Part shown: piece by piece, positions 1 through 12,847 of the stretch | Layout of the letters: every line of letters begins with the position of its first letter | How positions within the stretch are numbered: position 1 is the stretch's first letter | DNA from: Rhodothermales bacterium | GTDB lineage: Bacteria; Bacteroidota; Rhodothermia; Rhodothermales; VXPQ01 | Assembly: GCA_040904565.1 (NCBI GenBank) | Contig: JBBDTI010000074.1 | Coordinates: 3,619-20,737, forward strand | Reading direction: 5' to 3' | Length of the DNA: 17,119 bases | Position numbers and translations under genes: made by a program | Notes under the pieces: generated by a model | Seen by the model: only the letters and a program-made list of their open reading frames with translations | The model's database searches: none | Told to the model about the DNA's origin: nothing

Positions 1-7
1 ACGCGGC

Positions 8-1828
8 TTAGTTGCCGATCCATACGCTCTTGTTGATCGTTCCCGACGGCGTCGCCCCGTTGATCGTACGCCCGCTTTCCTGGAACGCAGACACGACCTG
101 ATCGGGTGTGGCTGTCGGATGGTTCGCCAGGTAGACGGCGGCGGCGCCGGAAACCATCGCCGCGGCGGGCGACGTACCCGTCGTCGTCGGTGACTTCGTC
201 GTCGAAGACTCGTGGGTCGAATTCACCGTTTCCAGCTTTTCACCCGGCGCAAGGATGTCGACCATGCTGCCGTAGTTAGAGAAGCTGGAAAAAACATCCG
301 TCTTTCCGTACGAACCCACCGTGATAGCCTTCACGGCATGCGCCGGCGTGTAAGTCGAGGCATCCGTGGCGCCGTTGCCGGCCGATACGACCACGACGAC
401 ACCAGCATCGACGGCGGCATCAACCGCCTCGTCGAGGGAGATATACTCCGTCGTACCGATGTCGGCACCGAGGCTGATGTTCACGACCATGGGCGTCAGC
501 GGGTGCAGGGCTTTACGCTCCACCACGTAGTCCAGTGCGGCGATCACGTAGGCCGACTCCGCCGAACCGTCATCGCTCACGACCTTCATACTGAAAACGT
601 CGACGCCGGGCGCCACGCCTACGATGCCGTCGCTGTCGTCAATGGCCGAAGCGAGTGCCGCGACGTGGGTCCCGTGTCCGTCCGTGTCGTCACCGCCTTC
701 GGCATACGTGCATCCGTCCAGGATCTCGTCGTCGGCGACCTCGCAGTGCGTGAAGTCATAGCGGGCGGCAACGTTGATGTCGTCGCTGCTCACGCCGCTG
801 TCGATGAAATAGACTTCGACGCCCGCGGCATCACGCGTACCGGTCGCACCGATCTTTTCCATGCCCCAGGGCGTGATCTGCTCGGGATCATCGTCGATGA
901 GCGACGGACCGTTTCCTCCTCCGAAGCGAAAGCTCGGCTCCGCATAGCGAACGATGGGATTTACGTTGATGAAGCTGACGAATCGGCTCACGTAGCGGCT
1001 GGGCAGCGAAACGGCTATGCCGTTCATGACGCTAGTAAAGTCCGCGTAGCGCGAAATATACTCCCACCGCGTAAGCAGCTCCTCATACGTCATGCCCCAT
1101 CGCTGCAGCAGCTCGTCGAAGCCCAGCTCCTCCCAGCGCTGCAGCAGCTCGTCACGGGACAGCAGCTCCCAGCGCGAGAGCAGCTCGTCACGCTGCAGCA
1201 GTTCCCACTGCTGGAGATCCTCCAGGCGGCTGAGCAGCTCGTCGCGAGAGAGGAGCTCCCAGCGAGAGAGCAGCTCCCAGCGGGACAGTAACTCTTCGGT
1301 CTGCATCTCTTCCCAACGCGACAGCAGTTCGTCGCGGCTTAACAGCTCGTCACGGCCGAGCAGTTCGTAGCGCTGCAAGAGTTCGAAGCGCTGCAACAGC
1401 TCGTCCATGGACAGGTCTTCCTGCGTGTCGATCAGCTCGTAGCGCTGAAGCAGCTCGAAACGCTGCAAAAGCTCGTAGCGCTGCAACAGCTCGAAACGCT
1501 GCAGCAGTTCCTGCTTCTCCAACTCCGTCGTGGTTTCGTCCATACTGAGGACGAATCCCGTCTCGTACTCGTCCTTACCCACCGAGCGCGTGGCACGGTC
1601 GATCAGGTTCGCGTGACGCAGCTTCGAAACGTCGCCGCGCTTATTGGGCGCGTCGACGGCGTCCGCCGTCGGTGACTCCGGAGCCTCGTCGAGGCCCGCT
1701 ATCTGATCCGTACAACCGGTGAAGGACAGCGTCGCGGCTAGTAGAAACGCGATCGCCGAATACATCGTGGCCCGAAGCCGCGAGGGGCGATCGTCGAACC
1801 GGCTTGGTGTGAATATTGAGTATAACAT
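8..1828 (-). CDS. S8 family (subtilisin-like) serine peptidase, predicted lipoprotein, with a hexapeptide-repeat insertion in an I9-like pro-domain (paralog A)
   Basis: 606-aa ORF. Triad motifs FIDSG (Asp), GHGTHVA (His) and TGTSPAAAMVSG (Ser), oxyanion SAGN, plus NISLG and DILAPG. Hydrophobic signal ends in lipobox-like SFTG-C. I9-like elements (VMNGIAV...VRYAEP) follow the repeats. Confidence 0.93.
   Translation of the reverse strand: MLYSIFTPSRFDDRPSRLRATMYSAIAFLLAATLSFTGCTDQIAGLDEAPESPTADAVDAPNKRGDVSKLRHANLIDRATRSVGKDEYETGFVLSMDETTTELEKQELLQRFELLQRYELLQRFELLQRYELIDTQEDLSMDELLQRFELLQRYELLGRDELLSRDELLSRWEEMQTEELLSRWELLSRWELLSRDELLSRLEDLQQWELLQRDELLSRWELLSRDELLQRWEELGFDELLQRWGMTYEELLTRWEYISRYADFTSVMNGIAVSLPSRYVSRFVSFINVNPIVRYAEPSFRFGGGNGPSLIDDDPEQITPWGMEKIGATGTRDAAGVEVYFIDSGVSSDDINVAARYDFTHCEVADDEILDGCTYAEGGDDTDGHGTHVAALASAIDDSDGIVGVAPGVDVFSMKVVSDDGSAESAYVIAALDYVVERKALHPLTPMVVNISLGADIGTTEYISLDEAVDAAVDAGVVVVVSAGNGATDASTYTPAHAVKAITVGSYGKTDVFSSFSNYGSMVDILAPGEKLETVNSTHESSTTKSPTTTGTSPAAAMVSGAAAVYLANHPTATPDQVVSAFQESGRTINGATPSGTINKSVWIGN
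1046..1510 (-). repeat. Intragenic 18-nt/6-aa tandem repeat, ELL(Q/S)R(W/F/Y/D): 23 units + 5-aa spacer + 2 units
   Basis: Read directly from the translation, ELLQRF...EYISRY (155 aa). At DNA level, recurring gcagcagctc/cagcgctg with synonymous variation. Confidence 0.97.
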
Positions 1829-1891
1829 GGTTTTGCTCGTTTAGGCAGTAGACACGCCGGAATGCCGGCGCCCTAAGAATTTGCTTCCCTA

Positions 1892-1937
1892 CAGGTATCG
1901 CGTATTCGCCGGCCGGCCAAATAGGACGTTTGACCTA
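1892..1937 (-). promoter_or_regulatory. Putative activator-dependent promoter of protease A: TAGG-N8-CCTA palindrome followed by a -35/-10-like block
   Basis: TAGGACGTTTGACCTA at 1922-1937. The block GGTATCGCG-N16-AAATAGG (1894-1925) recurs with identical spacing upstream of paralog B (4084-4115), 66 versus 67 nt from the respective ATGs. Confidence 0.6.
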
Positions 1938-2058
1938 ATTCGCATCGGGTGATCTGGTGAATCTTGCCGCCTGAGGCCCCATCGCAGGCGCTGTAGGCGC
2001 CCGGCCGGCGTGCGGCCCGAAGACTCGTCATGCGCGCACGCGCTCGTACCGGCTGCCC

Positions 2059-2094
2059 AAAAAAAACCGGGCGGCACCTTTCGGTACCGCCCGG
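2059..2094 (-). terminator. Rho-independent terminator after protease B
   Basis: Minus strand reads CCGGGCGG-TACC-GAAA-GGTG-CCGCCCGG followed by T8, about 45 nt downstream of the stop at 2140. Confidence 0.92.
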
Positions 2095-2139
2095 CTGCTC
2101 TCTCTCATCAAGAGCGATGGTTATATCGAAGGAGGGAGT

Positions 2140-4017
2140 TTAGCCCTTCCCCTTCTTTTTCTTCTTTCCCTTTTTATCGTCTTTCTCGTCACCGCCGATC
2201 CACACGGTTTTGTCCGTCGTGCCCTTCGGCGCGTTCTTGACGAGTTTCTCGCCGCTCTGGTCGAGCGCCTTCTCTACGTCCTTGGCGGACGCGTCAGGGT
2301 TCTGGGCGAGATAGACGGCGGCGGCGCCGGCGACCATCGCCGCAGCGGGCGACGTACCCGTGGACGTAGACTTCTGATAGCCGGTAGCGTCGTCCGAACC
2401 GACCGTCTCCAGCTGCTCGCCCGGGGCAAGAATGTCGACCACCTTGCCGTAGTTCGAGAACGTGGAGAACACGTAGTTCTTCCCGTACGAACCGACCGTG
2501 ATCGCGCCCTTGGCGTGCGCCGGCGTGTACGTCTCGGCATCGGTGCTGCCGTTGCCGGCGGACACGACCACGACGACACCTGCCTTGGCAGCCGCATCGA
2601 CGGCCTCGTCGAGGGCGATGTACTCCGTCGTACCGATATCGGCGCCGAGACTGATGTTGGCAACCATCGGCGTAGACGGATTCGTCTTCTTGCGTGCCAT
2701 GATGTAATCGAGCACCTCGATGACGTAGGACGATTCCGCACTACCGTCGTCTCGGACGACCTTCATGCTGTAGACGTTCACGCCCGGGGCCACACCTACC
2801 ACACCATCGTTATCGTCGATGGCGGAGGCGAGTCCGGCCATGTGCGTACCGTGACCGTCCGTGTCCAGCCCGCCCTCTTCGAGCGAACAGTCGTCGAGAA
2901 TGACGTCATCCTCGACCTCACACTGGGTCACGTCGTAGCGAGCCGCGACGTTGACGTCCGAGCTGCTCACGCCGCTGTCGATCATGTAGAGCTCGACGCC
3001 GTCGGCATGACGCCCATCCTCGGCGCCTATGTACTCGAGACCCCACGGCGTGATCTGGCTCCCGTCGCCGTTGAGCACGGGACCCGGATTGCCGATATTG
3101 AACCCGATGTCGGGCTCGGCCCACGACACGTGCGGCTGACGCTGGATAAAGCTCGCAAAGAGTCCGACGAGTCGACTCGGCATACGCACGGCGATGCCGT
3201 TGAAGACCTCGTTGTAGTTGCCGTAGCGCTGCAGCAGCTCCCACCGCTGCAAGAGCTCGTCGAACGTGAGTCCCCATCGCTGGAGCAGCTCGTCATAACC
3301 GAGCTTCTCCCAGCGCTGCAGCAGTTCGTCCTGATCGAGCTTATTCCATCGCTGGAGCAGCTCCCAGCGCTGAAGCAACTCCCAGCGCTGCAGCAGCTCG
3401 AGGCGATACACCAGCTGCCAGCGAGACAGCAGCTCCCAACGCTGCAGCAGCTCCCAACGCTGAAGCAACTCATCACGCTGTAGAAGCTCCCAGCGCTGCA
3501 GCAGCTCGTCGCGCGTCAACAGCTCGTCGCGGCCCAGCAGCTCGTAGCGCTGTAGCAACTCCCAGCGCTGAAGCAGCTCGTCACGCTGTAACAGTTCGTC
3601 ACGGCCGAGCAGCTCGAAACGCTGCAAGAGCTCGAAGCGCTGCAAGAGCTCGAAGCGCTGCAACAGCTCGAAGCGCTGGAGCAATTCCTGCTTCTCAAGG
3701 TCGGTCGTGTTGGAATGCAGGCCCAGGATGATGCCCGTCGATTCGCCGTTCTTGCTCGTGTGGACCGTCGCGCGGTCCATCAGGTTGGCGTGGCGAAGTT
3801 TCGTGATCGGTTCCATCTTGGAAGATACGTCCGGGATGTCCGAGTCGACCGCGGTCGTCTCAGATCCCCCGGCATCTTCAAGACCGGCGACCTGATCGGT
3901 ACAGCCCGTAAACGAAAGGACCGCAGCGAGCAGGAATGCAATCGCCGAATATAACGTCGCTCGAAGTCGCGTAAAGCGATCCTCCGAGGTCCTTGGGATG
4001 GATAGTGAGTTACGCAT
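2140..4017 (-). CDS. S8 family (subtilisin-like) serine peptidase, predicted lipoprotein, with hexapeptide-repeat pro-domain insertion and Lys-rich C-terminal tail (paralog B)
   Basis: Motifs MIDSG, GHGTHMA, SAGN, TGTSPAAAMVAG and lipobox-like SFTG-C. Start moved from 4161 to ATG 4017 because the N-terminus then aligns with paralog A (…RLRAT[ML]YSAIAFLLAA) and both ATGs share upstream AACGAGCAA. Confidence 0.93.
   Translation of the reverse strand: MRNSLSIPRTSEDRFTRLRATLYSAIAFLLAAVLSFTGCTDQVAGLEDAGGSETTAVDSDIPDVSSKMEPITKLRHANLMDRATVHTSKNGESTGIILGLHSNTTDLEKQELLQRFELLQRFELLQRFELLQRFELLGRDELLQRDELLQRWELLQRYELLGRDELLTRDELLQRWELLQRDELLQRWELLQRWELLSRWQLVYRLELLQRWELLQRWELLQRWNKLDQDELLQRWEKLGYDELLQRWGLTFDELLQRWELLQRYGNYNEVFNGIAVRMPSRLVGLFASFIQRQPHVSWAEPDIGFNIGNPGPVLNGDGSQITPWGLEYIGAEDGRHADGVELYMIDSGVSSSDVNVAARYDVTQCEVEDDVILDDCSLEEGGLDTDGHGTHMAGLASAIDDNDGVVGVAPGVNVYSMKVVRDDGSAESSYVIEVLDYIMARKKTNPSTPMVANISLGADIGTTEYIALDEAVDAAAKAGVVVVVSAGNGSTDAETYTPAHAKGAITVGSYGKNYVFSTFSNYGKVVDILAPGEQLETVGSDDATGYQKSTSTGTSPAAAMVAGAAAVYLAQNPDASAKDVEKALDQSGEKLVKNAPKGTTDKTVWIGGDEKDDKKGKKKKKGKG
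3223..3687 (-). repeat. Intragenic 18-nt/6-aa tandem repeat, ELLQR(W/F/Y/D): 23 units + 5-aa spacer + 2 units
   Basis: Read directly from the translation, ELLQRF...ELLQRY (155 aa). Confidence 0.97.
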
Positions 4018-4081
4018 AGTATTGCTCGTTAATGAACGTTGTGCGCGGATGTAGACCGGCACGGCAGATTTACTCGTATCC

Positions 4082-4127
4082 AGGGTATCGCGGACTCCCG
4101 ACGCGCCTAAATAGGCAACTCGACCGG
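4082..4127 (-). promoter_or_regulatory. Putative promoter of protease B, homologous to 1892-1937, with a degenerate box TAGG-N8-CCGG
   Basis: GGTATCGCG(4084-4092)-N16-AAATAGG(4109-4115). On the minus strand TTAGGC-N17-TACCCT, versus TTGGCC-N17-TACCTG for paralog A. Confidence 0.58.
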
Positions 4128-4179
4128 TTTTCTCGTCAGACCTGCTGAAATACGGGTGCACAAAAGTGCCTATACCACG

Positions 4180-4195
4180 TAGGTAGAATCACCTA
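4180..4195. promoter_or_regulatory. TAGG-N8-CCTA palindromic box (candidate response-regulator site)
   Basis: TAGGTAGAATCACCTA, with the same geometry as the boxes at 1922 and 4475. Confidence 0.55.
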
Positions 4196-4474
4196 GACAG
4201 GAAAGGGCAAGGCCGAAAAGACGGTTGCTCTCCCGTCCGTCCTTCAGCCTTACCCTTTTGATAGATCGCGTTGCGCAGACTATATCGTCACCCTCAGCGC
4301 ACGATCCATCAACCTGTCTTGTCCAGGTTCGCCGGGCGCCCGGGTCGCGTGGACCCTTCGACGCGCCGACAATTATAGTATCGTGGGATGCGGGCCCGAT
4401 GTATATAGGCCGAAGAACGGAAATCGCGGGGCCGTTTTGCCGGTTCTTGGACGGATCGAACTACCCACGGCGCC

Positions 4475-4490
4475 TAGGTAGCGATGCCTA
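4475..4490. promoter_or_regulatory. TAGG-N8-CCTA palindromic box (candidate response-regulator site)
   Basis: TAGGTAGCGATGCCTA. Shares TAGGTAG with the box at 4180 and lies 22 nt downstream of the regulator's stop codon. Confidence 0.5.
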
Positions 4491-4512
4491 CTACATGGCA
4501 CCAATTCATTCC

Positions 4513-5169
4513 TCAGGCCGCCTTCCGCTCGGAAAACCACTGGATGGCGAACCGGTCGAGCTCGGACGTGCTGTCGAGATCTAGCTTGCGCTTCATATTC
4601 TCCCGGTGTGAGTTGACGGTCTTCGGACTCACGTGCAGCGCCTCGGCGATCTGACGCGGCTTATATCCCTGACCGATCAGCTCCAGCACCTCCATCTCCC
4701 GCTCGCTGAGCTCAGAGACTTTCTCGTCGTCGCTTTCTTCGTCGGAGGCCAGCGATCGTGCCAGCACGTCCATCATGTTCTCGCCGATGTACACTTTTCC
4801 GGACAGCACGCGTCGGATCGCGTCGGCCAGACGCTGAATGGACTCTTTTTTATTGACGAACCCCTTCGCGCCGGATTTCAATACCTTCTCGAGGTAGTCC
4901 GGCGCGTCGTGCATGGAGACGACCAGCACCGGCAGGTCCGGCCAGCGTTCGTGAATGGTTTCGATAAGATCGAGACCGCTCTCCCCATCCAGAACCAGAT
5001 CCACGAGTACGATGTCCGGCAGCTCCTTCTCGAGCAGCTCGAGCGCACCCGCACTGTTTTCCGCCTCGCCGGTCACGGAGAGATCCTCCTCGCGGTTGAG
5101 CAGGCGGCTCACGCCATGGCGTACGATCGGATGATCGTCTACGATAAAAACGCGGGCTTTGTCGGGCAT
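4513..5169 (-). CDS. NarL/FixJ-family DNA-binding response regulator (REC + LuxR-type HTH)
   Basis: VFIVDDHPIVR, phospho-acceptor in IVLVDLVL, VVSMH, GAKGFVNK, and HTH LSEREMEVLELIGQG...IAEALHVSPKTVNSHRENMKRKL. Confidence 0.97.
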   Translation of the reverse strand: MPDKARVFIVDDHPIVRHGVSRLLNREEDLSVTGEAENSAGALELLEKELPDIVLVDLVLDGESGLDLIETIHERWPDLPVLVVSMHDAPDYLEKVLKSGAKGFVNKKESIQRLADAIRRVLSGKVYIGENMMDVLARSLASDEESDDEKVSELSEREMEVLELIGQGYKPRQIAEALHVSPKTVNSHRENMKRKLDLDSTSELDRFAIQWFSERKAA

Positions 5170-5181
5170 GTCTTCAGCGTG

Positions 5182-7167
5182 TCAGGTAGTTGAATGGATC
5201 TCTCCGGCATGGCGCTCCGCGGAGGCCGGCAGCGTACAGACCACGCGCGTGCCGCGACTCCGCCGGCGACCGATAGACAGCACGGCGCCGATCGTCTGGG
5301 CACGATAGTGCATGGTCCGAAGGCCCAGGCCGCTGGCGGTCTGCTCGACCCCCTCCGGCAGCCCGATGCCGTCGTCCACGACCTGCAATACGGTCTTCCC
5401 CCGCTTCGTGGTGAGGGAGATGGCGACCTGTTCGGGTTTTCCGTGGCGGACCGCGTTGTTGACGGCCTCCTGTGCAACCCGGTACATGTGCAGGGCGATT
5501 TCAGGATCTTGTATCGGTCGATACGTCCCTGTCTTAAGCGTACAGGAGATGCCGTAGACGCCCTCGACGTGAGAGCGAAGCCGCTGGAGAGCTGCCTCGA
5601 GACCGTTTTCCTCCAGTTCCACAGGAAGCAACAGCTTGCTGAGGCTGCGCGTGTGGTCGATCGCGTCCTCCACGAGGTAGGTAATCTCGGATGCCTCTCC
5701 GGACAGGTCGTCTTCTCGCGCTTCCAGCGTCTGCGCAAGCGTCTTGCTCAAAAAACCGATGCCGGTGAGCAGCTGCCCCAGACCGTCGTGCAGATCTCGT
5801 CCCACGCGCTTTCGCTCCCTCTCGCCGGCCTTGAGGATCTCCTTCTCGAGGATGCGCTGCTCGGTGATGTCGTGGAGCACACCAATGACGCGGCCGGACC
5901 GGTCGTCCCCGCCCGAGCTGAATTCCATTTCCACCACGCGCTCCTCTCCGTCGGGCCGTCGAATTCGAAATTCGCCGCTTCGCACCTCGCCATCCGCTCC
6001 CATCGAGAACAGGTCGAACACGCGGCGGCGATCATCCGGCTGAATCTGACGTGCGATGTGGAATAACGCCGGGCGAAAAGAGTCCTTATCCACCCCGAAG
6101 ATTCGATACGTTTCGTCGGACCACATCAATGCCCTGCTTCCCGGCATCCAGCTCCAGCTTCCTAAGTGCGCGATGCGCTCGGCCTCCTTGAGAAGCGATT
6201 CGCTGGTGCGCAGCGCGCGCTCTGCTTCCATGCGTTCGTTGACCTCGTGGCGCAGTTTACGGTTACCCTGTTCCAGCTCCGCCGTACGTGCGGCCACTTT
6301 CCGCTTGAGCTCCATCCGGGCCGTCCGCTCAAATCGGTCGCGATCGATCGCAATCCCGGCGACCTGTGCAGAGACATCGAGCAGCCGGAAATCTTCATCG
6401 CCCGGTTCGGGCGTATCGGGATGAAAGAGAACCAGTACGCCGTTGGCGTCTCGATCCCTGGAGACAACCGGCATAGCCCAGCACGAGGCGTATCTAAAGC
6501 CCGACCAGTCCGGTTCATCGAGGGTCAGCGTGCGCACTCTCTCTCTCGGCGGGACGTCGAGCGCAACCGGAAGCGGCAGATCATTCTCCCATTCCTGCTC
6601 GAGGATAAGCACCTCGTCATCCGTGAGTCCCGGTGCGACGAGCGGGCGGATGAGATTCTGGTTCCCATCGAGCACCAGGAGGGCAACGGCTACCCCCGGC
6701 AGCTGCCCTTCGAGGAAGTAGGCCAGCGTGTCGAGCGAATCGATCAGCGGCTTCCCTCGGGCGACCAGCTCGAGGAGACTCTTCTGCCCGATCTGAAGAT
6801 CGGCCAGCCGTCGATACTCCGAGATGTCGCGCGCCACGACCTCCAGCGCCGTCGTGCGACCTTCCTCTTCCACCAGGTGCGCCTCCTGACCCAACCAGAC
6901 TACGTGGCCGCTGCTGGATAGAACGGGGACCTCCGCATACGTCCGCAGTTCGCCGCTCCGCACCTGGCGCCCATAGGTCGAGAGTATACTCCGCACGCTT
7001 CCGGGGGCCAGAAATTCATCCACCCGCCGACCGACGACGTCGTCGCGATCGTAACCGAGCAAGCGAGTCACGGCCGCGTTCACGTATCGAATGCGACCGG
7101 CCCGGTCGAGCGTATAGATCAGGTCGCCGGCCTGGTCAACCAGCGATTGGAATGCGAAAGGCTCCAT
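5182..7167 (-). CDS. Cytoplasmic sensor histidine kinase, PAS-GAF-like-PAS-HisKA_3-HATPase
   Basis: PAS (DLIYTLDRAGRIRYVNAA...ARDISE), GAF-like segment (SCWAMPV...AGIAIDR), coiled coil, second PAS (AHLGSWSW...WSDETYRIFG...HDITEQ), H-box RDLHDGLGQ, N-box QEAVNNAVRH, DDGIG and GLGL. No transmembrane segment seen. Start ATG 7167 preferred over 7200. Stop is 12 nt from the regulator's start. Confidence 0.95.
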   Translation of the reverse strand: MEPFAFQSLVDQAGDLIYTLDRAGRIRYVNAAVTRLLGYDRDDVVGRRVDEFLAPGSVRSILSTYGRQVRSGELRTYAEVPVLSSSGHVVWLGQEAHLVEEEGRTTALEVVARDISEYRRLADLQIGQKSLLELVARGKPLIDSLDTLAYFLEGQLPGVAVALLVLDGNQNLIRPLVAPGLTDDEVLILEQEWENDLPLPVALDVPPRERVRTLTLDEPDWSGFRYASCWAMPVVSRDRDANGVLVLFHPDTPEPGDEDFRLLDVSAQVAGIAIDRDRFERTARMELKRKVAARTAELEQGNRKLRHEVNERMEAERALRTSESLLKEAERIAHLGSWSWMPGSRALMWSDETYRIFGVDKDSFRPALFHIARQIQPDDRRRVFDLFSMGADGEVRSGEFRIRRPDGEERVVEMEFSSGGDDRSGRVIGVLHDITEQRILEKEILKAGERERKRVGRDLHDGLGQLLTGIGFLSKTLAQTLEAREDDLSGEASEITYLVEDAIDHTRSLSKLLLPVELEENGLEAALQRLRSHVEGVYGISCTLKTGTYRPIQDPEIALHMYRVAQEAVNNAVRHGKPEQVAISLTTKRGKTVLQVVDDGIGLPEGVEQTASGLGLRTMHYRAQTIGAVLSIGRRRSRGTRVVCTLPASAERHAGEIHSTT

Positions 7168-7185
7168 CTGGCATCGATTCCGAGG

Positions 7186-7204
7186 GTAGGTGTGGTACAC
7201 CTAC
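7186..7204. promoter_or_regulatory. Inverted repeat GTAGGTGT-GGT-ACACCTAC (TAGG-N9-CCTA) just upstream of the kinase
   Basis: Perfect 8-bp arms, about 20 nt upstream of ATG 7167, with the same half-sites as the N8 boxes. Confidence 0.45.
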
Positions 7205-7259
7205 TAGAATCGACGGCGCACGCCCAATATTAAGCGCGCGCTTCACGAGGCAAATCTCG

Positions 7260-8177
7260 CTAGTTGACGAGCTCTTCGTATGTAGAGATGTGGGAAGGGT
7301 CGAGACGGGTAAGATGGTCATACGCCTCGGAGCTGCGCTGCCATCCGTCGAAAACCGACGGAAATTCCGTGTATTTTGCTGAAAAGAACAGATCTATGGC
7401 GTACTGCCTGGACACGTCCTGGAACAGCTCATCGAGAGAAACCAGGACTTCCAGCATCGTCGCCCGAGCCGCATCGGTCTCGGTGGTGAAGCGGTCCAGT
7501 CCACCAAAATGATAGTCGAAATACGCCTTGCGAAGCGGACGAAGGCGAGGATCGAGGATCTGGGTGATCAGATTCACGCGCCCCCGGTCACTGCCTACCT
7601 GCGACCAGCCGGGGGCGGACTGCGACTGGGCGCGCTCCGCAATGCGGCGCGCCGTCGCGAAATGGTCCGAGCCTCCGTACTCACTGAAGGTGTCGTAATC
7701 GTACCCCAGCATGACGTAGGCGTAAAAGTCGATGATCGAAACGAGCGGATCGTACTGGTCGAGATTGAAGACCAGCGGCTGGCCCTGAGCGTAGTTGAAC
7801 TGCCACTCCGTATCGTTGAACTGCACGACGGTCGTGTGCTGCGTCGTGTTATAGATCGGCCTGCGCGAGGCGATGATGAGCCGGGCTCGGAAGCTCGTCA
7901 ACGAGATGGCCTCCTCGACCGTGACCTGCATCGTGCATTCGATTCGCTCGTTCTCGCGAAAGCGGTCCTCCGTCCACGAGCGCTTGTTGACGTACTCTTC
8001 GATTCGGTCCTCCAGGTCACTCAAAAACCCAAAATCAGAGCCGCTCAAGCTGCTGTAATTCACCGAAACGGTGCAATTGAACTCCTGCGCCTGCACATCC
8101 GACGGTGCGGAGGCCACATACATGCAGGCACACGCCAGCAGTACCCCGGCACGCACCAGAAAACGAGTCATCCACAT
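7260..8177 (-). CDS. DUF4835 family protein (T9SS-associated PorD-like), exported
   Basis: Signal peptide, then AQEFNCTVSVN...YVNKRSWT...ERIEC...RRPIYNTT...FYAYVMLGYDYDTFS...GW, the pattern I recognise as DUF4835 of Bacteroidota/Rhodothermota. Start uncertain (8201/8177/8171). Confidence 0.8.
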   Translation of the reverse strand: MWMTRFLVRAGVLLACACMYVASAPSDVQAQEFNCTVSVNYSSLSGSDFGFLSDLEDRIEEYVNKRSWTEDRFRENERIECTMQVTVEEAISLTSFRARLIIASRRPIYNTTQHTTVVQFNDTEWQFNYAQGQPLVFNLDQYDPLVSIIDFYAYVMLGYDYDTFSEYGGSDHFATARRIAERAQSQSAPGWSQVGSDRGRVNLITQILDPRLRPLRKAYFDYHFGGLDRFTTETDAARATMLEVLVSLDELFQDVSRQYAIDLFFSAKYTEFPSVFDGWQRSSEAYDHLTRLDPSHISTYEELVN

Positions 8178-8487
8178 CAGCAACGTTCCGTCTTCATCCA
8201 CAACCTATCCATAGCAAGCGACACCGACACAGTACCACACCCGGAAGCCCCGCCGTTCAGCGGTTCATACTGGAAGCGCACCACCCCAGTTTCACCGGAA
8301 GTAACACCTCGCATCACACGGCACATCACCTGAAGGTTACATCCTACCCTCGCTCGTGTCTGTGTAGTACGAAGACGATCGAATACGGTGCCCTCGCCGT
8401 GATATAAAGACGCCGAGCGGAAACCCACCGGCATCTCCGTCTCCGTTTGACGAGGCCTCCGTACGAACGACATCGACGGGTACGTTC

Positions 8488-9297
8488 ATGTGCCGCTCTC
8501 TGTACCTTTTCGTTCTCACTTTCGTGCTCGTCCTGCCGGCATCCGGGCAGACGGCGCTCCGGGGCCCGCGCAGCGCGGCGCTCGCTGGGGCGACCAGCGC
8601 GCTGTCCGGCGACGTCTACGGCGAGGTGAACCCCGCGGCGTGGGCGCAGGCTGAAGAATTTGGGCTGCTGCTGCATGCCGCGCAGTTGTACGGTCTCCGA
8701 GAACTCAGATTCGCCGGTGCGCTCCTCATCTTACCCTATCGCACCGGATCGGCCGCGCTCGGCGGCTCTACCTTCGGATTCGAGTTGTATCGGACCAGCA
8801 CGATAGATATCGGATTGGCCCTGAGGGTTCGAGCCGGGTCCTATAGGCATTTCTCGATCGGGTTGCGCTCCCGGTGGCGGTACGTGACGATAGACCGATA
8901 CGGAAGCACTTCGGCACTTGGATTGACGGCCGGACTCCAACTGCCCGTAACGCCGTTCATCACGATCGGCGCCGCCGCCCAGAATGCCGTCGTCGGCGGT
9001 CCGTATCGATCCGACGTGCCGCGACGTCTGACGGTCGGCGCCGCATTCGTGCTCACGCCTTCCTTCGCCGCGATGGTGGACGTGTCGAAAGACGTTCTAA
9101 CCCCGGTCGCCGTCTCCACGGGGGTCGAAATATCCCCCGTTCAGGTCGTCGTGCTTCGTCTTGGCGCCGGCGCCTCACCGCCCCTCCTCGCTGGAGGCGT
9201 CGGACTCCGGCTGGCAGGTTTTCAGGCGGACGTGGGAGCCGTACATCACGCCGTTCTCGGCTGGAGTCCGTCCGTATCCGTCCTGCTGGAGAGGTAG
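8488..9297 (+). CDS. Putative outer-membrane beta-barrel protein (PorV/PorQ-like N-terminal motif)
   Basis: Signal peptide, GPRSAALAGA...NPA motif, alternating amphipathic strands and C-terminal HAVLGWS. Sits 4 nt upstream of the HhH gene. Confidence 0.7.
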   Translation: MCRSLYLFVLTFVLVLPASGQTALRGPRSAALAGATSALSGDVYGEVNPAAWAQAEEFGLLLHAAQLYGLRELRFAGALLILPYRTGSAALGGSTFGFELYRTSTIDIGLALRVRAGSYRHFSIGLRSRWRYVTIDRYGSTSALGLTAGLQLPVTPFITIGAAAQNAVVGGPYRSDVPRRLTVGAAFVLTPSFAAMVDVSKDVLTPVAVSTGVEISPVQVVVLRLGAGASPPLLAGGVGLRLAGFQADVGAVHHAVLGWSPSVSVLLER

Positions 9298-9301
9298 CGG
9301 T

Positions 9302-11272
9302 ATGCTGGCCGCACTGTTCGCTCTCGCCGTCATTCAGGCAGGTCCTGCTGCTCCCGACACGAGCGGTGTGGATCAAATCGTGGAATCGCTGCTCGAGAAT
9401 CGAATAGACGATCAGGACGATGCGAGCCGGGAGCAGGACGCCGGCCATCTCGTAGAGCTGCTCGAAGACGCTCTGCACCGGAGAGTGCCGATCAATACCG
9501 CCTCCGAAGAAACGCTGCGGGGTCTGGCCGTACTGTCGGAAGTTGACGTGCGCCGCATCGTCCACCACCGGGCGGAAGCCGGTCCTCTGCGTGCGGCTGC
9601 CGATCTGCTTGCAGCCGGACTCTCAGACGAGGCCGTGCGTCAACTCGAGCCGTTCATTACGTTTAACCTCCATCAACCATCATCCGCGCGCCGGATCCGT
9701 GTCGACCTTATCCAGCGATGGAGCCGGCGCATCGACGTCGGTCGTGGTTTCCAGCCGTCGTCTGCGACAGGTTCGCGGTATCTGGGGGCGCCCCTCGCCT
9801 TCCAGTCCAGACTGCGGCTCCGCGTCGGTGAGCAGGTCTCGGCCGGCCTTACGCTAGATCATGATGCCGGGGAGCCCTTCGTCTGGCGGCCCGGCCGCCG
9901 CCGATTGGGCCCCGATTACATCTCATTACATGGTACGTTGGACGGCGTCGGACCGGTAGAACGACTCGTAGCGGGCAGCTTCAGCGTGCAGGTCGGAGAA
10001 GGCCTCGTCATCGGACAGCGTACCGCAGCGATGGCCGCCGTACGCACGGCTACCGTAGACCGCCTTCTGCGACCCCATTCCTCGTCTCGAGAAGGTGCCC
10101 ATTTTCGGGGTCTCGCCATCCAAACCAGGTCCGTTCACGGCCTAACGCTCGGTGCGTTCGTCTCGCTCCATCGCACCGATGGACGCCTGGATACGCTCGA
10201 TGGGAGCTGGCACCTCGCTGCCGCGGGGGCCCACCGCACACCCGGCGAGCAGCGCGGCCGGAAGCTCCTTCGTGCTCGCACGTCCGGCGCGCTGTTTAGT
10301 TTTCGCTTCGGCCCGCTCCATGTAGGTGCCCTCACCGTATACACGCGCTACGGTCCAGACAAACCCTACCGCACGTCGACTTCCGGCACCATTTTTGCTG
10401 GATGGGTCCGGCCACGATGGACCGTAACGGCAGAGATGGATCCGAACCTCTTGCACGCGGCGGCAACCGCCATCTTTCGAGGTCCGCGTGACGTCACGAC
10501 AGCGATCCGATTCGTCGGCACGAGATCCGGCACGACCAGAGTGCATTCACCATCGGGCGTGAATAGCAGGGGTGAAAGCCTGGATATGCGGGCCTGGGAT
10601 GCTGAATACAGCTTCCGGCCGTTCCGATCGTGGACCTCCGCCACCAGATTCCGCTACCGCGTGAAAGCTCGTATCGACGAGCCGGCCTACGAACGCCGGT
10701 CCGTGGACACACGTCTGGAATTCGCCCCCCACCGATGGCTCCGCGTACAAGTTCGCGGTACGAGCAGCTCGACGGAAGAAGCCGCGGCGTGCCTCGCGGG
10801 GCGGCACGTACTCCGCTGCTCCACGACCCGCACCCGGAACACGGCACGCCTGGAGATCGAATACCGACACAGTCCAACGTTCCGCTCGCGGTCACGCATC
10901 GAACTCGTCGACGCCACGGGGCCGGCCGGTCTCCACCAGGGTTTTCTCATCTACGAGGAAGTTAGATGGCACGCGGCCAAACGTCTCCAGCTCGATCTCC
11001 GATTGGCCACGTTCGAGACGTCCGGTACACGTGCACGCATCCATACGTTCGAGAACGACGTACTTTACGCCTTCAGCGTACCTTCTTTCGCAGGTCGCGG
11101 ACGTCGGCGGTACGTGCTCGCCCACGTCCGCGCGTCGTCGCGCCTCACCCTCCAGCTAAAAATGGCCGTAACGAACTATGTGGACGTGCGCACCGTCGGA
11201 TCGGGATTGGATGAAGTGGCAGGCAACAGGATTCGCGAGGTGAAGGTGCAGATTCGGTGGAAGACCGATTAA
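9302..11272 (+). CDS. Helix-hairpin-helix (ComEA/HHH_3-like) domain protein with C-terminal beta-rich, probably barrel, region
   Basis: PINTASEETLRGLAVLSEVDVRRIVHHRAEAGP is HhH-like. Also DHDAGEPF, GSFSVQVGEGL, FENDVLYAFSVP and terminal KVQIRW. ATG 9302 follows GGAGAGG, so it is preferred over 9161. Confidence 0.82.
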   Translation: MLAALFALAVIQAGPAAPDTSGVDQIVESLLENRIDDQDDASREQDAGHLVELLEDALHRRVPINTASEETLRGLAVLSEVDVRRIVHHRAEAGPLRAAADLLAAGLSDEAVRQLEPFITFNLHQPSSARRIRVDLIQRWSRRIDVGRGFQPSSATGSRYLGAPLAFQSRLRLRVGEQVSAGLTLDHDAGEPFVWRPGRRRLGPDYISLHGTLDGVGPVERLVAGSFSVQVGEGLVIGQRTAAMAAVRTATVDRLLRPHSSSREGAHFRGLAIQTRSVHGLTLGAFVSLHRTDGRLDTLDGSWHLAAAGAHRTPGEQRGRKLLRARTSGALFSFRFGPLHVGALTVYTRYGPDKPYRTSTSGTIFAGWVRPRWTVTAEMDPNLLHAAATAIFRGPRDVTTAIRFVGTRSGTTRVHSPSGVNSRGESLDMRAWDAEYSFRPFRSWTSATRFRYRVKARIDEPAYERRSVDTRLEFAPHRWLRVQVRGTSSSTEEAAACLAGRHVLRCSTTRTRNTARLEIEYRHSPTFRSRSRIELVDATGPAGLHQGFLIYEEVRWHAAKRLQLDLRLATFETSGTRARIHTFENDVLYAFSVPSFAGRGRRRYVLAHVRASSRLTLQLKMAVTNYVDVRTVGSGLDEVAGNRIREVKVQIRWKTD

Positions 11273-11881: not shown

Positions 11882-11962
11882 GCGCGACCGACCCCTCGAC
11901 CGGGCATCGGCCTCGGTCGCGACGTGCTTCGGATACCTCCGTCCACGTTCACTGCATTACCG

Positions 11963-12847
11963 ATGTTGATCGCGCATGTCTGCCGGCGAACGGGAACCGG
12001 CATCAACGGCTTCCTCTTGATTGCCCTCCTCATATTGACAGCCGGTTGTGCCGGAGAACGTACGTACGAGGTGCGGGGGCGCGTGGCGGGATTCGGGGAC
12101 GACGCACATACCCTTATCGTCGAACATGAAGACATTCCCGGCCTCATGCCGGCGATGACGATGCCGTTCGACGTTCTCGACCCGACGGCCATCGAGAACC
12201 TGACTGTCGGCGACGCGATCGCCTTCCGGCTCTCCATGACGGGTGACCGGTCGTGGATCGAGGACATCACCGTGCTCGCCGACGATGCCGTCGCCGAACA
12301 TCCGGCGGGCCGACCCGATCCCTTTCAACCGAACACCGAACGCATCCTCGATCGTGGGGACCGCATTCCCGACGCCGAGCTGCTTACGCACGCCGACACG
12401 ACGCTGCGGCTGGCGTCTCTACGTGGACGGAGAGTCGTGATCACGTTCATCTATACCGAATGTCCGATCCCGGATTTCTGTCCACTCATGTCACGCCGGT
12501 TCGCCGAGCTGCAGCCCGAACTCGAGCGGCTGAGCGGTCCACCGACGCACCTTCTCAGCATCAGCTTCGATCCGTCTACCGATACGCCGGACGTGCTGCG
12601 CGACTATGCAGATCGATATACGTCGGATCTATCAAACTGGACCTTCGCTACCGGAGATCAGGAGACGATTGACCGGCTGGCAAACCGATTCGGGGTGTTC
12701 TATCGAACGGATGCCGAACAAATCATCCATAATCTGGTCACCGTCCTGGTTGACGCGGACGGTCACGTTCGCGACATATGGCGCGGCAATGAGTGGCTGG
12801 CCGACGACGTCCTCGACGCGCTACAGCAGATGAATCCGGACGCCTGA
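11963..12847 (+). CDS. SCO1/SenC family lipoprotein with N-terminal CusF-like copper-binding domain
   Basis: Lipobox LTAG-C, HEDIPGLMPAMTMPF (CusF-like His/Met site), TFIYTECPIPDFCP, SISFDP..DTP and IIHNL. Start uncertain. Confidence 0.9.
   Translation: MLIAHVCRRTGTGINGFLLIALLILTAGCAGERTYEVRGRVAGFGDDAHTLIVEHEDIPGLMPAMTMPFDVLDPTAIENLTVGDAIAFRLSMTGDRSWIEDITVLADDAVAEHPAGRPDPFQPNTERILDRGDRIPDAELLTHADTTLRLASLRGRRVVITFIYTECPIPDFCPLMSRRFAELQPELERLSGPPTHLLSISFDPSTDTPDVLRDYADRYTSDLSNWTFATGDQETIDRLANRFGVFYRTDAEQIIHNLVTVLVDADGHVRDIWRGNEWLADDVLDALQQMNPDA

What the first reader, a model, noticed from the sequence alone, without database searches (positions are those of the whole stretch)
8..7204. Candidate undescribed module: tandem repeat-prodomain lipoprotein subtilases under a dedicated cytoplasmic two-component system
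Seen: four co-oriented genes (kinase, NarL-type regulator, protease B, protease A). Both proteases carry a large hexapeptide array, have their own conserved promoter block and are separated by a strong terminator. TAGG-N8/9-CCTA boxes occur at both protease promoters and around the kinase/regulator pair. Known: HisKA_3 kinases pair with NarL/LuxR regulators that bind inverted repeats as dimers. Inference: this is a small regulon in which an intracellular PAS/GAF-sensed cue induces two envelope-anchored, repeat-bearing proteases. I do not know a characterised system with this architecture.
Basis: partly seen in the sequence, partly recalled or inferred. Interest (0 to 1): 0.85.

Follow-up and report, generated by a model that had tools for sequence, protein, structure and literature searches.

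The report
Repeat-propeptide subtilases and their regulators
Two neighbouring genes encode membrane-tethered subtilisin-type proteases whose built-in inhibitor segment carries about 25 copies of a six-residue repeat; they sit in a conserved cluster with signalling proteins, shared DNA control motifs and a small structured RNA, so the parts are of known kinds but the combination is new.

Summary
On the minus strand lie a soluble PAS-GAF-PAS HisKA_3 kinase, a NarL-type regulator and two paralogous S8 lipoprotein subtilases (66% identical), split by a strong terminator. TAGG-N8/9-CCTA occurs 4 times here against 0.11 expected, and only 7 times in the 4.02 Mb genome. The hexad array (E-L-L-x-R-W/F/Y, 19-26 units) is an expansion of helix alpha1 of an I9-like propeptide.

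Boxes and promoter blocks are conserved in six sister genera. The kinase-regulator-protease-sensor set is missing as a block from the sister genus. However, the local synteny is part of a wider collinear stretch, and 9 of 10 distant family loci lack this kinase/regulator pair.

- The family's commonest neighbour is a Reg_prop/Y_Y_Y hybrid sensor kinase (22 of 45 loci), just beyond the window here.
- The promoters are of FliA/sigma-28 type, and the protease family was found only in genomes with a FliA/WhiG sigma (21 of 21, against 0 of 14).
- A conserved structured RNA lies between regulator and protease.
- Bacillus DegS-DegU with AprE/Epr is a characterised analogue.

Verdict: a new variant of known kinds. 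No function has been tested.

The parts
8..1828 (-). Protease A: lipoprotein S8 subtilase zymogen, 606 aa
   Evidence: Peptidase_S8 E 2.7e-37. Triad D343/H385/S553 and N485 are invariant in a 27-sequence alignment. AlphaFold2 mean pLDDT is 77.5. The top Foldseek hit is unautoprocessed pro-subtilisin E, 3WHI, TM 0.80 on the target.
1064..1510 (-). Hexad array of protease A (residues 107-255), in the place of helix alpha1 of the I9-like propeptide
   Evidence: hexads in one phase; helices 102-254 lie between strand 88-96 and strands 259-264 and 270-276; pLDDT is 41-86.
1895..1925 (-). Promoter-like two-block motif of protease A (CCTATT..CGATAC)
   Evidence: One of 3 genome-wide matches, all on this contig. 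Aligns with the protease B block.
1922..1937 (.). TAGG-N8-CCTA box overlapping the upstream block of the protease A promoter
   Evidence: A related strain differs at 1932 and 1936.
2065..2096 (-). Intrinsic terminator after protease B
   Evidence: 14-pair stem, 10 G-C pairs, then a T run. Contigs of three runs carry about 30-39 letters matching the stretch that ends at 2095, 32 letters before window base 1. I read this as a second copy of the terminator after protease A (joint 2095 to 1).
2140..4017 (-). Protease B: lipoprotein S8 subtilase zymogen (625 aa from the ATG at 4017), with a Lys-rich C-terminal tail
   Evidence: The start is placed by alignment with protease A and its orthologs.
3223..3687 (-). 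Hexad array of protease B (residues 111-265)
4085..4115 (-). Promoter-like two-block motif of protease B
   Evidence: Conserved in G001, G002, G004, G005 and G006.
4167..4195 (.). Composite operator-like site before the protease B promoter: TAGGTA-N4-TACCTA overlapping TACCTA-N7-TAGGTA
   Evidence: 2 of 5 and 2 of 4 genome-wide hits with at most 1 mismatch lie in this spacer. Positionally conserved in orthologs.
4203..4330 (-). Conserved structured RNA-like element between regulator and protease B
   Evidence: 33 pairs, 11 with changes on both sides, 93.4% of cells paired against 37-48% when slid, 0 of 500 shuffles as high. No Rfam match to this element (the one weak window-wide hit lies at the terminator). 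One copy per genome, found only in this clade.
4378..4409 (-). Promoter-like two-block motif before the RNA element
   Evidence: In the orthologs it reads CCTATTTAA-N15-17-GCGATACC.
4462..4490 (.). Second composite box site, just after the regulator stop codon and upstream of the RNA promoter
4513..5169 (-). NarL/FixJ-type response regulator, 218 aa
   Evidence: Response_reg E 6.3e-28 and GerE E 1.2e-17. NCBIfam hits to NarL-like models all fall below the equivalog cut-offs.
5182..7167 (-). Soluble PAS-GAF-PAS HisKA_3 histidine kinase (a GTG at 7200 is an alternative start)
   Evidence: Full-length orthologs (62-78% identity) occur only in G001-G006.
5508..5540 (-). Sigma-28-type motif inside the kinase gene, about 340 nt before the regulator ATG
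   Evidence: PWM score 20.5, rank 39 in the genome. Present at the same place in 5 of 7 genomes, though it lies in conserved codons.
7187..7203 (.). Palindrome (TAGG-N9-CCTA) directly after the kinase promoter-like motif; probably a leader hairpin
7204..7236 (-). Sigma-28-type promoter-like motif before the kinase
   Evidence: PWM score 18.7, rank 49 in the genome. Conserved in the orthologs.

Best explanation
What it is. The window holds a tandem duplicate of a gene for a lipid-anchored subtilase zymogen. Its propeptide has the I9 fold (strand-helix-strand-strand-helix-strand). The first helix has grown from about 2 hexads, as in short family members, to 19-26 in-phase hexads E-L-L-x-R-(W/F/Y). 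Because the lipid anchor sits on the propeptide, autoprocessing would cut the mature enzyme free of the membrane (inferred). The array would then be a helical appendage of the tethered inhibitor/chaperone part (inferred).

Family context. The genes belong to a Rhodothermales family of lipoprotein subtilases with short-period arrays (periods 6, 10 and 12) at this same place. The commonest neighbour of that family is a periplasm-sensing Reg_prop/Y_Y_Y hybrid histidine kinase.

Proposed control (inferred; no expression data). In this clade the protease-sensor pair lies behind a soluble PAS-GAF-PAS HisKA_3 kinase and a NarL-type regulator. I propose two layers of control. First, FliA/sigma-28-type promoters precede the kinase, the sensor, the RNA and, in weakened form, the proteases. 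Second, the phosphorylated regulator binds the locus-specific TAGGTA/TACCTA sites 50-90 bp upstream of the RNA and protease B promoters and at the upstream block of the protease A promoter. This logic resembles DegS-DegU plus SigD control of Epr in Bacillus subtilis.
For: Protein:
- S8 domain with an intact triad.
- The AlphaFold2 model of protease A gives the I9 topology with the array as the first helix.
- The best Foldseek hit is unautoprocessed pro-subtilisin E, aligned over 359 columns of a 355-residue chain at TM 0.80.
- The short paralog on contig C63 folds at mean pLDDT 85.1, and its YEYAIR x3 array forms helix 99-111 at block pLDDT 83-86.
- Array length and the positions of degenerate units are kept between the two paralogs and G001/G004 at 61-66% identity.

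Family:
- 21 of 41 related genomes carry it. Arrays of period 6, 10 and 12 occur at the same site.

Sensor partner:
- 22 of 45 family loci have a Reg_prop sensor within 5 kb, mostly as a divergent pair (hand tally). G000 has only 7 Y_Y_Y proteins.

Promoters:
- The TTAAG-N-GCCGATAC motif occurs 36 times against 6-13 in shuffles, 25 of them outside long ORFs. It lies before three of the genes tested by Pfam (a flagellin, FliS and MotA) and before further flagellin-like genes in the list.
- Kinase and sensor promoters rank 49 and 76 genome-wide.
- The third S8 paralog has an exact match.
- 7 of 19 family genes examined have such a motif within 420 nt.
- All 21 genomes with the family have a FliA/WhiG sigma, and 0 of 14 genomes without that sigma have the family.

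Boxes:
-, with conservation.
- A perfect box lies about 130 nt upstream of a sigma-28-type motif (a terminator-like hairpin lies between them) before a T2SSE ATPase gene on contig C91.

Module gain or loss:
-.

Analogue:
- Passages of PMC8767453.
Against: - No transcript, binding or activity data exist for any part.
- Synteny with the kinase/regulator pair is limited to one clade, inside a longer collinear block. 9 of 10 distant loci lack such a pair.
- In G000 the two protease promoters score poorly against the sigma-28 matrix built from this genome: 5.5 and 0.1 bits, against 16.8-20.5 for the kinase, internal and sensor motifs. Sigma-28 use at the proteases rests mainly on the orthologs' better matches and on phyletic co-occurrence.
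- The box at 7187-7203 behaves like an RNA hairpin.
- The protease A box is not positionally homologous to the protease B box, and it differs at two bases in a related strain.
- The Pfam I9 model does not match.
- The array is modelled at low confidence (pLDDT 41-58 over most of it), so its shape and role are unknown.
- The genome counts involve related genomes: 12 of the 14 sigma-less genomes belong to one genus.
Confidence: 0.55

Rival explanations
1. The kinase/regulator pair is only a neighbour by descent. The proteases would then be controlled by the adjacent Reg_prop/Y_Y_Y hybrid kinase (through an unlinked regulator) and by the FliA-type sigma. The TAGGTA/TACCTA sites would bind some other factor.
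For: The sensor, not the HisKA_3/NarL pair, is the partner kept across families: 22 of 45 loci against 1 of 10 distant loci. The whole region is collinear in the clade. A perfect box also lies on contig C91, far from this regulator.
Against: 4 of 7 genome-wide boxes lie within 5.3 kb around this regulator gene. One composite site sits directly after its stop codon. Kinase, regulator, protease and sensor are missing together in genus g8 while the flanking genes stay. The hybrid kinase has no DNA-binding domain, and the NarL-type regulator is the only DNA-binding protein identified in the cluster.
Confidence: 0.25
2. The arrays are tandem processing sites. On activation the propeptide would be cut into many copies of a short peptide, which act as decoy substrates that delay activation or as a signal sensed by the neighbouring Reg_prop kinase.
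For: A core of two aliphatic residues followed three places later by an aromatic residue recurs in arrays of period 6, 10 and 12. This resembles the hydrophobic P4 and aromatic P1 preference of subtilisins (recalled). Each paralog type sits beside its own sensor. Bacillus Epr processes a signalling peptide (passage of PMC8767453).
Against: Position 6 is the least conserved position in the long arrays: aromatic in 69% of 128 hexads, D/N in 13%. The 6-residue phase is kept strictly, even through degenerate units at conserved places, which points to a folded periodic structure rather than independent linear motifs. In the short paralog the array is a confidently modelled helix of the I9 core.
Confidence: 0.1
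3. The long arrays are selectively neutral slippage expansions of a low-complexity helix with no role of their own.
For: Array length differs between family members, from 2 to about 26 units. The model confidence is low. A search of 1.84 billion representatives found only unrelated repetitive proteins besides one family member.
Against: Length, phase and the places of irregular units are conserved between paralogs and across genera at 61-66% protein identity. E1, L2, L3 and R5 are close to invariant in 128 hexads, while the DNA repeats have diverged to 66-94% matches. No length variants appear in contigs of three runs.
Confidence: 0.1

Closest known systems
Bacillus subtilis DegS-DegU with AprE/Bpr/Epr, and SigD control of Epr
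   Same: A soluble histidine kinase and a NarL/LuxR-family regulator control subtilisin-family (S8) genes. Epr belongs to both the DegU and SigD regulons, is linked to swarming, and degrades the secreted anti-sigma factor FlgM (passages of PMC8767453). Here a soluble HisKA_3 kinase and a NarL-type regulator lie beside S8 genes that carry FliA-type promoter motifs.
   Different: These are not orthologs. The kinase here has PAS-GAF-PAS input domains. The genes are clustered with their presumed targets. The proteases are lipoproteins of a Gram-negative lineage with repeat propeptides. A Reg_prop hybrid kinase and a structured RNA are part of the cluster. That DegS is HisKA_3-type and lacks PAS/GAF domains is recalled, not tested here.
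I9 propeptide of subtilisins (pro-subtilisin E, pro-Tk-subtilisin): intramolecular chaperone and inhibitor
   Same: Same order of strands and helices. The whole zymogen model aligns to unautoprocessed pro-subtilisin E (3WHI, TM 0.80) and to pro-Tk-subtilisin (2E1P, TM 0.71).
   Different: The first helix is about 150 residues of hexad repeats instead of about 13. The propeptide carries the lipid anchor and a conserved K-L-R-H-x-x-L motif ahead of strand 1. Pfam PF05922 does not match.
Bacteroides hybrid two-component sensors with Reg_prop/Y_Y_Y periplasmic domains next to the enzymes they control (recalled)
   Same: A large periplasmic propeller sensor is encoded beside a secreted or surface hydrolase gene, often divergently.
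   Different: The sensor here has no AraC-type DNA-binding domain. Its architecture is Reg_prop-Y_Y_Y-HisKA-HATPase-REC-HisKA-HATPase. The neighbouring enzyme is a protease, not a glycoside hydrolase, and the ligand is unknown.
Repeat precursors cut by subtilases (yeast alpha-factor/Kex2, fungal Kex2-processed repeat proteins; recalled)
   Same: Many tandem copies of a short peptide are associated with a subtilase.
   Different: There the precursor and the protease are separate proteins, and the repeats are flanked by dibasic sites. Here the repeats are inside the protease's own propeptide and look like a folded helix. Release of peptides has not been shown.

Membership tests
Peptidase S8 (subtilase) | Asp-His-Ser triad in that order, oxyanion Asn, and a match to the S8 profile | tested here: met
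   PF00082 E 2.7e-37 and 6e-39. D343, H385, S553 and N485 are invariant in 27 sequences. Foldseek hits to subtilisins and proteinase K at E about 1e-20.
Inhibitor I9 propeptide | Match to the Pfam PF05922 sequence profile | tested here: not met
   No PF05922 hit at E up to 0.01 for either protease.
Inhibitor I9 propeptide | Strand-helix-strand-strand-helix-strand fold packed on the catalytic domain, N-terminal to it | tested here: met
   Predicted only. Searches give the element order; one search gives the alignment to pro-subtilisin E over the whole 355-residue chain.
Bacterial lipoprotein | Signal peptide ending in a lipobox with an invariant Cys | tested here: met
   Basic n-region, hydrophobic core and S-F-T-G-C. 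The Cys is invariant in alignment A7 and at least 90% conserved in A4. The lipobox rule is recalled. Lipidation and the final membrane are not testable here.
NarL/FixJ response regulator | Receiver domain plus C-terminal GerE/LuxR helix-turn-helix | tested here: met
   PF00072 E 6.3e-28 and PF00196 E 1.2e-17. No NCBIfam equivalog cut-off is reached.
HisKA_3 histidine kinase | HisKA_3 dimerisation/phospho-acceptor domain followed by HATPase_c | tested here: met
   PF07730 E 5.1e-11 and PF02518 E 2.4e-12.
DegS-DegU system | Orthology to DegS and DegU | not tested
   NCBIfam named no DegS/DegU model among the hits shown. The resemblance is functional only.
FliA/sigma-28 dependent promoter | Match to the -35/-10 consensus shared with flagellar late genes of the same genome | tested here: inconclusive
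   Met for the kinase, the internal site, the sensor and the C63 paralog (scores 16.8-20.5, or an exact match). Weak for proteases A and B in G000 (0.1 and 5.5), better in the orthologs.
FliA/sigma-28 dependent promoter | Transcription that depends on the sigma factor | not testable with these tools
   Only co-occurrence is available: the family is present in 21 of 27 genomes with a FliA/WhiG sigma and 0 of 14 without.
Reg_prop/Y_Y_Y hybrid sensor kinase | Reg_prop repeats, Y_Y_Y, HisKA, HATPase_c, receiver | tested here: met
   on the G004 ortholog. The G000 copy is cut by the contig end but is 64% identical over residues 40-966 of the query.
Any Rfam family (for the RNA element) | Covariance-model match | tested here: not met
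   Nothing matches this element. The only hit in the window at E up to 1 is a below-threshold sbrA match at the terminator, 2062-2118.

The most novel reading that the evidence does not exclude
The protease and the neighbouring Reg_prop/Y_Y_Y kinase form a self-reporting pair. When the zymogen fires, its repeat propeptide is shed or cut into many copies of one short peptide. The cognate sensor detects these in the envelope, which couples protease activation to a phosphorelay and to the FliA-type regulon. Different repeat types (ELLxRW, YEYAIR, the 10- and 12-residue units) would then be paired with different sensors, like pheromone-receptor pairs.
Probability: 0.08. Interest if true: 0.8.

Novelty: new variant of a known kind. 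Interest (0 to 1): 0.55.

Why it matters
Propeptides of subtilases are textbook intramolecular chaperones of fixed size. A whole family in which one helix of that domain is a repeat array of 2 to about 26 units, on a lipid-anchored propeptide, is a new structural variant. It could show how zymogen release or timing is tuned.

The recurrent pairing of these proteases with propeller-type hybrid sensor kinases suggests a protease counterpart of the enzyme-plus-sensor logic known from polysaccharide utilisation loci.

The cluster also offers a compact, testable regulon in a poorly studied phylum: a rare operator motif, FliA-type promoters, a NarL-type regulator and a clade-specific RNA. FliA/WhiG-type sigma genes in the six protease-bearing genomes where no flagellin gene was found (G001, G004, G022, G023, G025, G027) hint at a non-flagellar use of this sigma.

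Tried and rejected
- Complex prediction of the sensor's periplasmic part (residues 28-750) with the propeptide (residues 66-300): no verdict, score 0.00. This is not evidence either way.
- Expression: no RNA holder was listed for window 1-7300. Only DNA contigs could be laid.
- Rfam: nothing for the RNA element.
- Proteins shorter than 333 aa with the propeptide or array: none at E up to 0.001.
- Search of 1.84 billion representatives with residues 66-300: 24 hits at E up to 0.001, none at 1e-30. Of the 13 I read in part, all were unrelated repetitive proteins; one further hit was the family member P0002. I take these hits as compositional.
- Pfam 'Decapeptide' PF25296 gave below-cut-off hits to two 10-residue-repeat family members but nothing over the cut-off in 41 genomes. 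No existing model describes the arrays.
- The search for related loci in genome contigs returned only 1 true relative among 10 loci.
- The transcript behind the third promoter block (beyond the window) is not conserved between G000 and G006 apart from a terminal hairpin.
- I first read the shared promoter block as specific to this cluster, then found that it is a variant of the genome's sigma-28-type motif. The matrix test showed that the G000 protease copies are weak matches.
- Flagellin presence does not track the family strictly: 15 genomes have both, 6 have the family only, 4 have flagellin only. FliA/WhiG tracks it better.
- Literature: three searches (listings only) found no paper on repeat-bearing subtilase propeptides or on an S8 / Reg_prop kinase pairing. 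Supplements were not consulted.
- The hand tally of 22 of 45 loci is a lower bound, because many contigs end within 2 kb of the protease gene.

Full report
ANATOMY. The window is G000:C74:3619-20737 of a 4.02 Mb, 95-contig assembly. Named homologs place it in Rhodothermales. Four ORFs lie on the minus strand:
- A kinase at 7200/7167..5182 (PAS, GAF, PAS_3, HisKA_3, HATPase_c).
- A regulator at 5169..4513 (Response_reg + GerE).
- Protease B at 4017..2140 and protease A at 1828..8 (both Peptidase_S8).

The kinase has no signal peptide and only one borderline hydrophobic stretch inside the GAF region. The proteases are 66% identical and align without gaps through their arrays. A 14-pair terminator at 2096..2065 separates them. 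Contigs of three runs carry a short stretch matching the terminator 32 letters before window base 1, which I read as a copy of it after protease A. The duplicated unit was therefore promoter-gene-terminator. The same contigs reproduce both arrays with no insertions or deletions.

THE REPEATS. DNA arrays of period 18/36 lie at 1096-1510 and 3238-3683. In protein they read E-L-L-x-R-x. Both proteases keep the 6-residue phase over the first 23 hexad positions, degenerate units included: 18 of 19 ELL motifs in A and 20 of 22 in B are in one phase. Then comes a one-residue shift at a conserved G-x-T-x-x-E unit.

Nine proteins from seven genomes have arrays of 112-155 residues. In 128 canonical hexads, E1, L2 and L3 are fixed by the selection, R5 is present in 123, and position 6 is W/F/Y in 69%, D/N in 13% and L/M in 11%. 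The degenerate units sit at the same places in the two paralogs and in G001 and G004, which argues for a folded, periodic structure.

The AlphaFold2 model of protease A (27-row alignment, mean pLDDT 77.5) gives this order of elements:
- strand 88-96;
- helices 102-254, which are the array (pLDDT 86 falling to 41-58);
- strands 259-264 and 270-276;
- helix 277-289;
- strand 293-298;
- the catalytic domain.

Foldseek's best hit is unautoprocessed pro-subtilisin E (3WHI), aligned over its whole 355 residues at TM 0.80. Pro-Tk-subtilisin and PCSK9 follow.

The genome's third family member (contig C63, 473 aa, YEYAIR x3) folds at mean pLDDT 85.1, with the array as helix 99-111 of the same fold. The array is thus the first helix of an I9-like propeptide, although Pfam's I9 model does not match.

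The N-terminal lipobox Cys is conserved across the family, as is a K-L-R-H-x-x-L motif before strand 1. Since the anchor is on the propeptide, processing should free the mature enzyme. This is an inference.

THE FAMILY. A search of 5.8 billion proteins gave 2,940 proteins at E up to 0.001 among the 8,000 candidates scored. The 16 top-ranked hits I read were nearly all lipoprotein S8 enzymes. Those with a source name were almost all named Rhodothermales, Rubricoccaceae or Bacteroidota; the one other organism name, a chytrid, stood at rank 113.

Their arrays sit at the same place but differ in period:
- period 6 (for example K-V-L-E-R-Y, 2-5 copies);
- period 10 (Y-G-I-T-R-R-V-L-E-E, up to about 10 copies);
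- period 12.

Some members have no evident repeat. No Pfam model covers the arrays. No short stand-alone proteins carry them. A library-wide search returned only compositional look-alikes.

NEIGHBOURS. Among 41 related genomes, 21 have the family. In the window's own family the count is 6 of 18, with 0 of 12 in genus g8. Full-length kinase orthologs (62-78% identity) exist only in the six non-g8 genera G001-G006.

In G001, G002, G004 and G005 the order kinase-regulator-protease is intact. In G003 and G006 the contigs end right after the regulator. However, the whole stretch SCO1-HHH_3-orf-DUF4835-kinase-regulator-protease is collinear there, so adjacency reflects descent as much as function. 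Only G000 has two tandem proteases. G006 has two further array-bearing paralogs on other contigs with no such pair nearby.

Of 10 distant loci with up to 20 kb of context, 1 has a HisKA_3/NarL pair within 10 kb.

In contrast, a gene of about 1,500 aa with the architecture Reg_prop-Y_Y_Y-HisKA-HATPase-REC-HisKA-HATPase follows the protease in every resolved locus of the clade. In G000 it lies just beyond the window start, after a run of N.

Across the 50 family genes (45 loci), 22 loci have such a sensor within 5 kb. Most are divergent pairs, and they occur in at least eight lineages (hand tally; a lower bound because many contigs are short). G000 has only 7 Y_Y_Y proteins, and two of them flank its three family genes. 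Neighbours other than the sensor differ from locus to locus.

In three g8 genomes the HHH_3-orf-PorD block is kept, but nothing of the kinase, regulator, protease or sensor follows it. The set was therefore gained or lost as a block, which counts as one event.

CIS ELEMENTS. TAGG-N8/9-CCTA occurs 4 times here against 0.11 expected, and 7 times in the whole genome. With at most one mismatch, TAGGTA-N4/5-TACCTA has 5 genome hits and the everted TACCTA-N7/8-TAGGTA has 4. Two of each lie in the regulator-to-protease B spacer, where they overlap into composite sites at 4167-4195 and 4462-4490.

The alignment of this spacer from six genomes shows the same order everywhere:
- a box site;
- a two-block motif, CCTATTTAA-N15-17-GCGATACC;
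- about 130-190 nt of conserved sequence;
- one or two box sites;
- a second two-block motif 70-90 nt before the protease ATG.

The protease A box overlaps the upstream block of its promoter. It is not homologous in position to the protease B box, and it varies in a related strain.

The 7187-7203 site follows a TTAAT-N-CGATTC motif. Its arms differ between genera while staying complementary, so I read it as a leader hairpin.

A perfect box on contig C91 lies about 130 nt upstream of a TTAGG-N-GCCGATAC motif (a terminator-like hairpin lies between them) and a T2SSE-type ATPase gene. Of the other two boxes, one is inside a UbiA gene and one is intergenic.

PROMOTER TYPE. TTAA-N16-19-CGATAC occurs 36 times against 6-13 in shuffled genomes, and 25 of these lie outside long ORFs. 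Downstream genes include three flagellins, FliS, MotA, several CheY-like regulators and the C63 S8 paralog (Pfam confirmed one flagellin, FliS and MotA). This is the FliA/sigma-28 consensus, and G000 encodes a FliA/WhiG sigma above the curated cut-off.

A matrix built from 25 sites outside this contig gave these scores:
- kinase promoter: 18.7 (rank 49 in the genome);
- a site inside the kinase gene, ahead of the regulator: 20.5 (rank 39);
- sensor promoter: 16.8 (rank 76);
- third block after protease A: 12.4;
- protease B promoter: 5.5;
- protease A promoter: 0.1;
- RNA promoter: 7.0.

The orthologs' versions fit a looser sigma-28-like pattern better. Seven of 19 family genes examined have such a motif within 420 nt upstream, four of them canonical GCCGATAC sites in other families. 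My rough chance estimate is about 0.02 per locus.

Phyletically, all 21 genomes with the family have a FliA/WhiG-type sigma, and none of the 14 genomes without it has the family. Twelve of those 14 belong to one genus. Six family-bearing genomes show no flagellin gene. Four of the five tested first (G001, G004, G022, G023) have this sigma above the cut-off and G027 falls just below it. G025 is above the cut-off.

THE RNA. The conserved stretch at 4203-4330(-) folds into two stem-loops with 33 pairs, and 11 pairs show changes on both sides among six sequences. Of all cells, 93.4% pair, against 37-48% when the partner is slid, and 0 of 500 shuffles reach the observed covariation. The structure was derived from these same sequences, which favours it. 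G-U pairs fit the minus strand. There is no Rfam match. A covariance model finds one copy per genome, in 3 of 151 sampled genomes of the order, all from this clade.

COMPARISON AND VERDICT. The closest characterised logic is DegS-DegU control of AprE, Bpr and Epr, together with SigD control of Epr in Bacillus subtilis (passages read in PMC8767453). The closest structure is the I9 propeptide. The sensor pairing recalls Bacteroides hybrid two-component systems (recalled).

I rate the protein annotation and the propeptide placement as secure. The sensor partnership and the FliA-type link are well supported statistically but untested. Control by the local regulator is plausible, at about even odds. 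The role of the array is open.

Three literature searches found no description of such propeptides or of the protease-sensor pairing (listings only).

Noticed in passing
window 4203-4330 (-), promoter-like block 4378-4409: Clade-restricted structured RNA-like element between regulator and protease B. It has a conserved GGGAGAGC hairpin loop and its own promoter block, with no Rfam match.
   Followed up: yes
G000:C74:3-2786 (-), locus L064, just beyond the window start: Reg_prop/Y_Y_Y hybrid sensor kinase gene with a sigma-28-type promoter. It is the commonest neighbour of this protease family in other genomes.
   Followed up: yes
G000:C74:3430-3460 (-), locus L064, after a run of N following protease A: Third copy of the CCTATT..CGATAC block with a half box. 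It is followed by about 300 nt ending in a hairpin and no convincing ORF. G006 has a similar unit, but the sequence is not conserved.
   Followed up: partly
window 7260-8201 (-): The gene upstream of the kinase is a DUF4835 protein that NCBIfam names type IX secretion protein PorD (287 bits, cut-off 170). It is the conserved anchor next to which the module is present or missing.
   Followed up: partly
window 5508-5540 (-): Strong sigma-28-type motif inside the kinase coding region, about 340 nt before the regulator ATG. It is kept in 5 of 7 genomes. It may be an internal promoter for the regulator, or merely conserved codons.
   Followed up: partly
G000:C91:39368-39383 (locus L067 1369-1384): The only perfect TAGGTA-N4-TACCTA palindrome in the genome. 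It lies in an intergenic region upstream of a sigma-28-type motif and a T2SSE-family ATPase gene, after a pilin-like ORF. It may be a further member of the same regulon.
   Followed up: partly
window 2140-2200 (-): Protease B ends in a Lys-rich tail (G-G-D-E-K-D-D-K-K-G-K-K-K-K-K-G-K-G) that protease A lacks.
   Followed up: no
window 1986-2058 and 1903-1949: In run X2 a related strain replaces 73 bases upstream of protease A with 75 other letters. It also differs at several bases in and around the protease A box.
   Followed up: no
proteins P0001, P0002, P0005, P0031 and others: Many family members carry a long C-terminal extension (weak DUF7305 match) and 10- or 12-residue repeat arrays. G031 has three family genes in tandem with no sensor nearby.
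   Followed up: no
genomes G001, G004, G022, G023, G025, G027: A FliA/WhiG-type sigma gene is present although no flagellin gene was found. This suggests a non-flagellar use of this sigma in parts of the order.
   Followed up: partly
window 8488-9297 (+) and 9161-11272 (+); 11924-12847 (+): Two overlapping plus-strand ORFs (no Pfam family; HHH_3) and a fused CusF-SCO1/SenC protein. These are part of the collinear block and were not studied.
   Followed up: no
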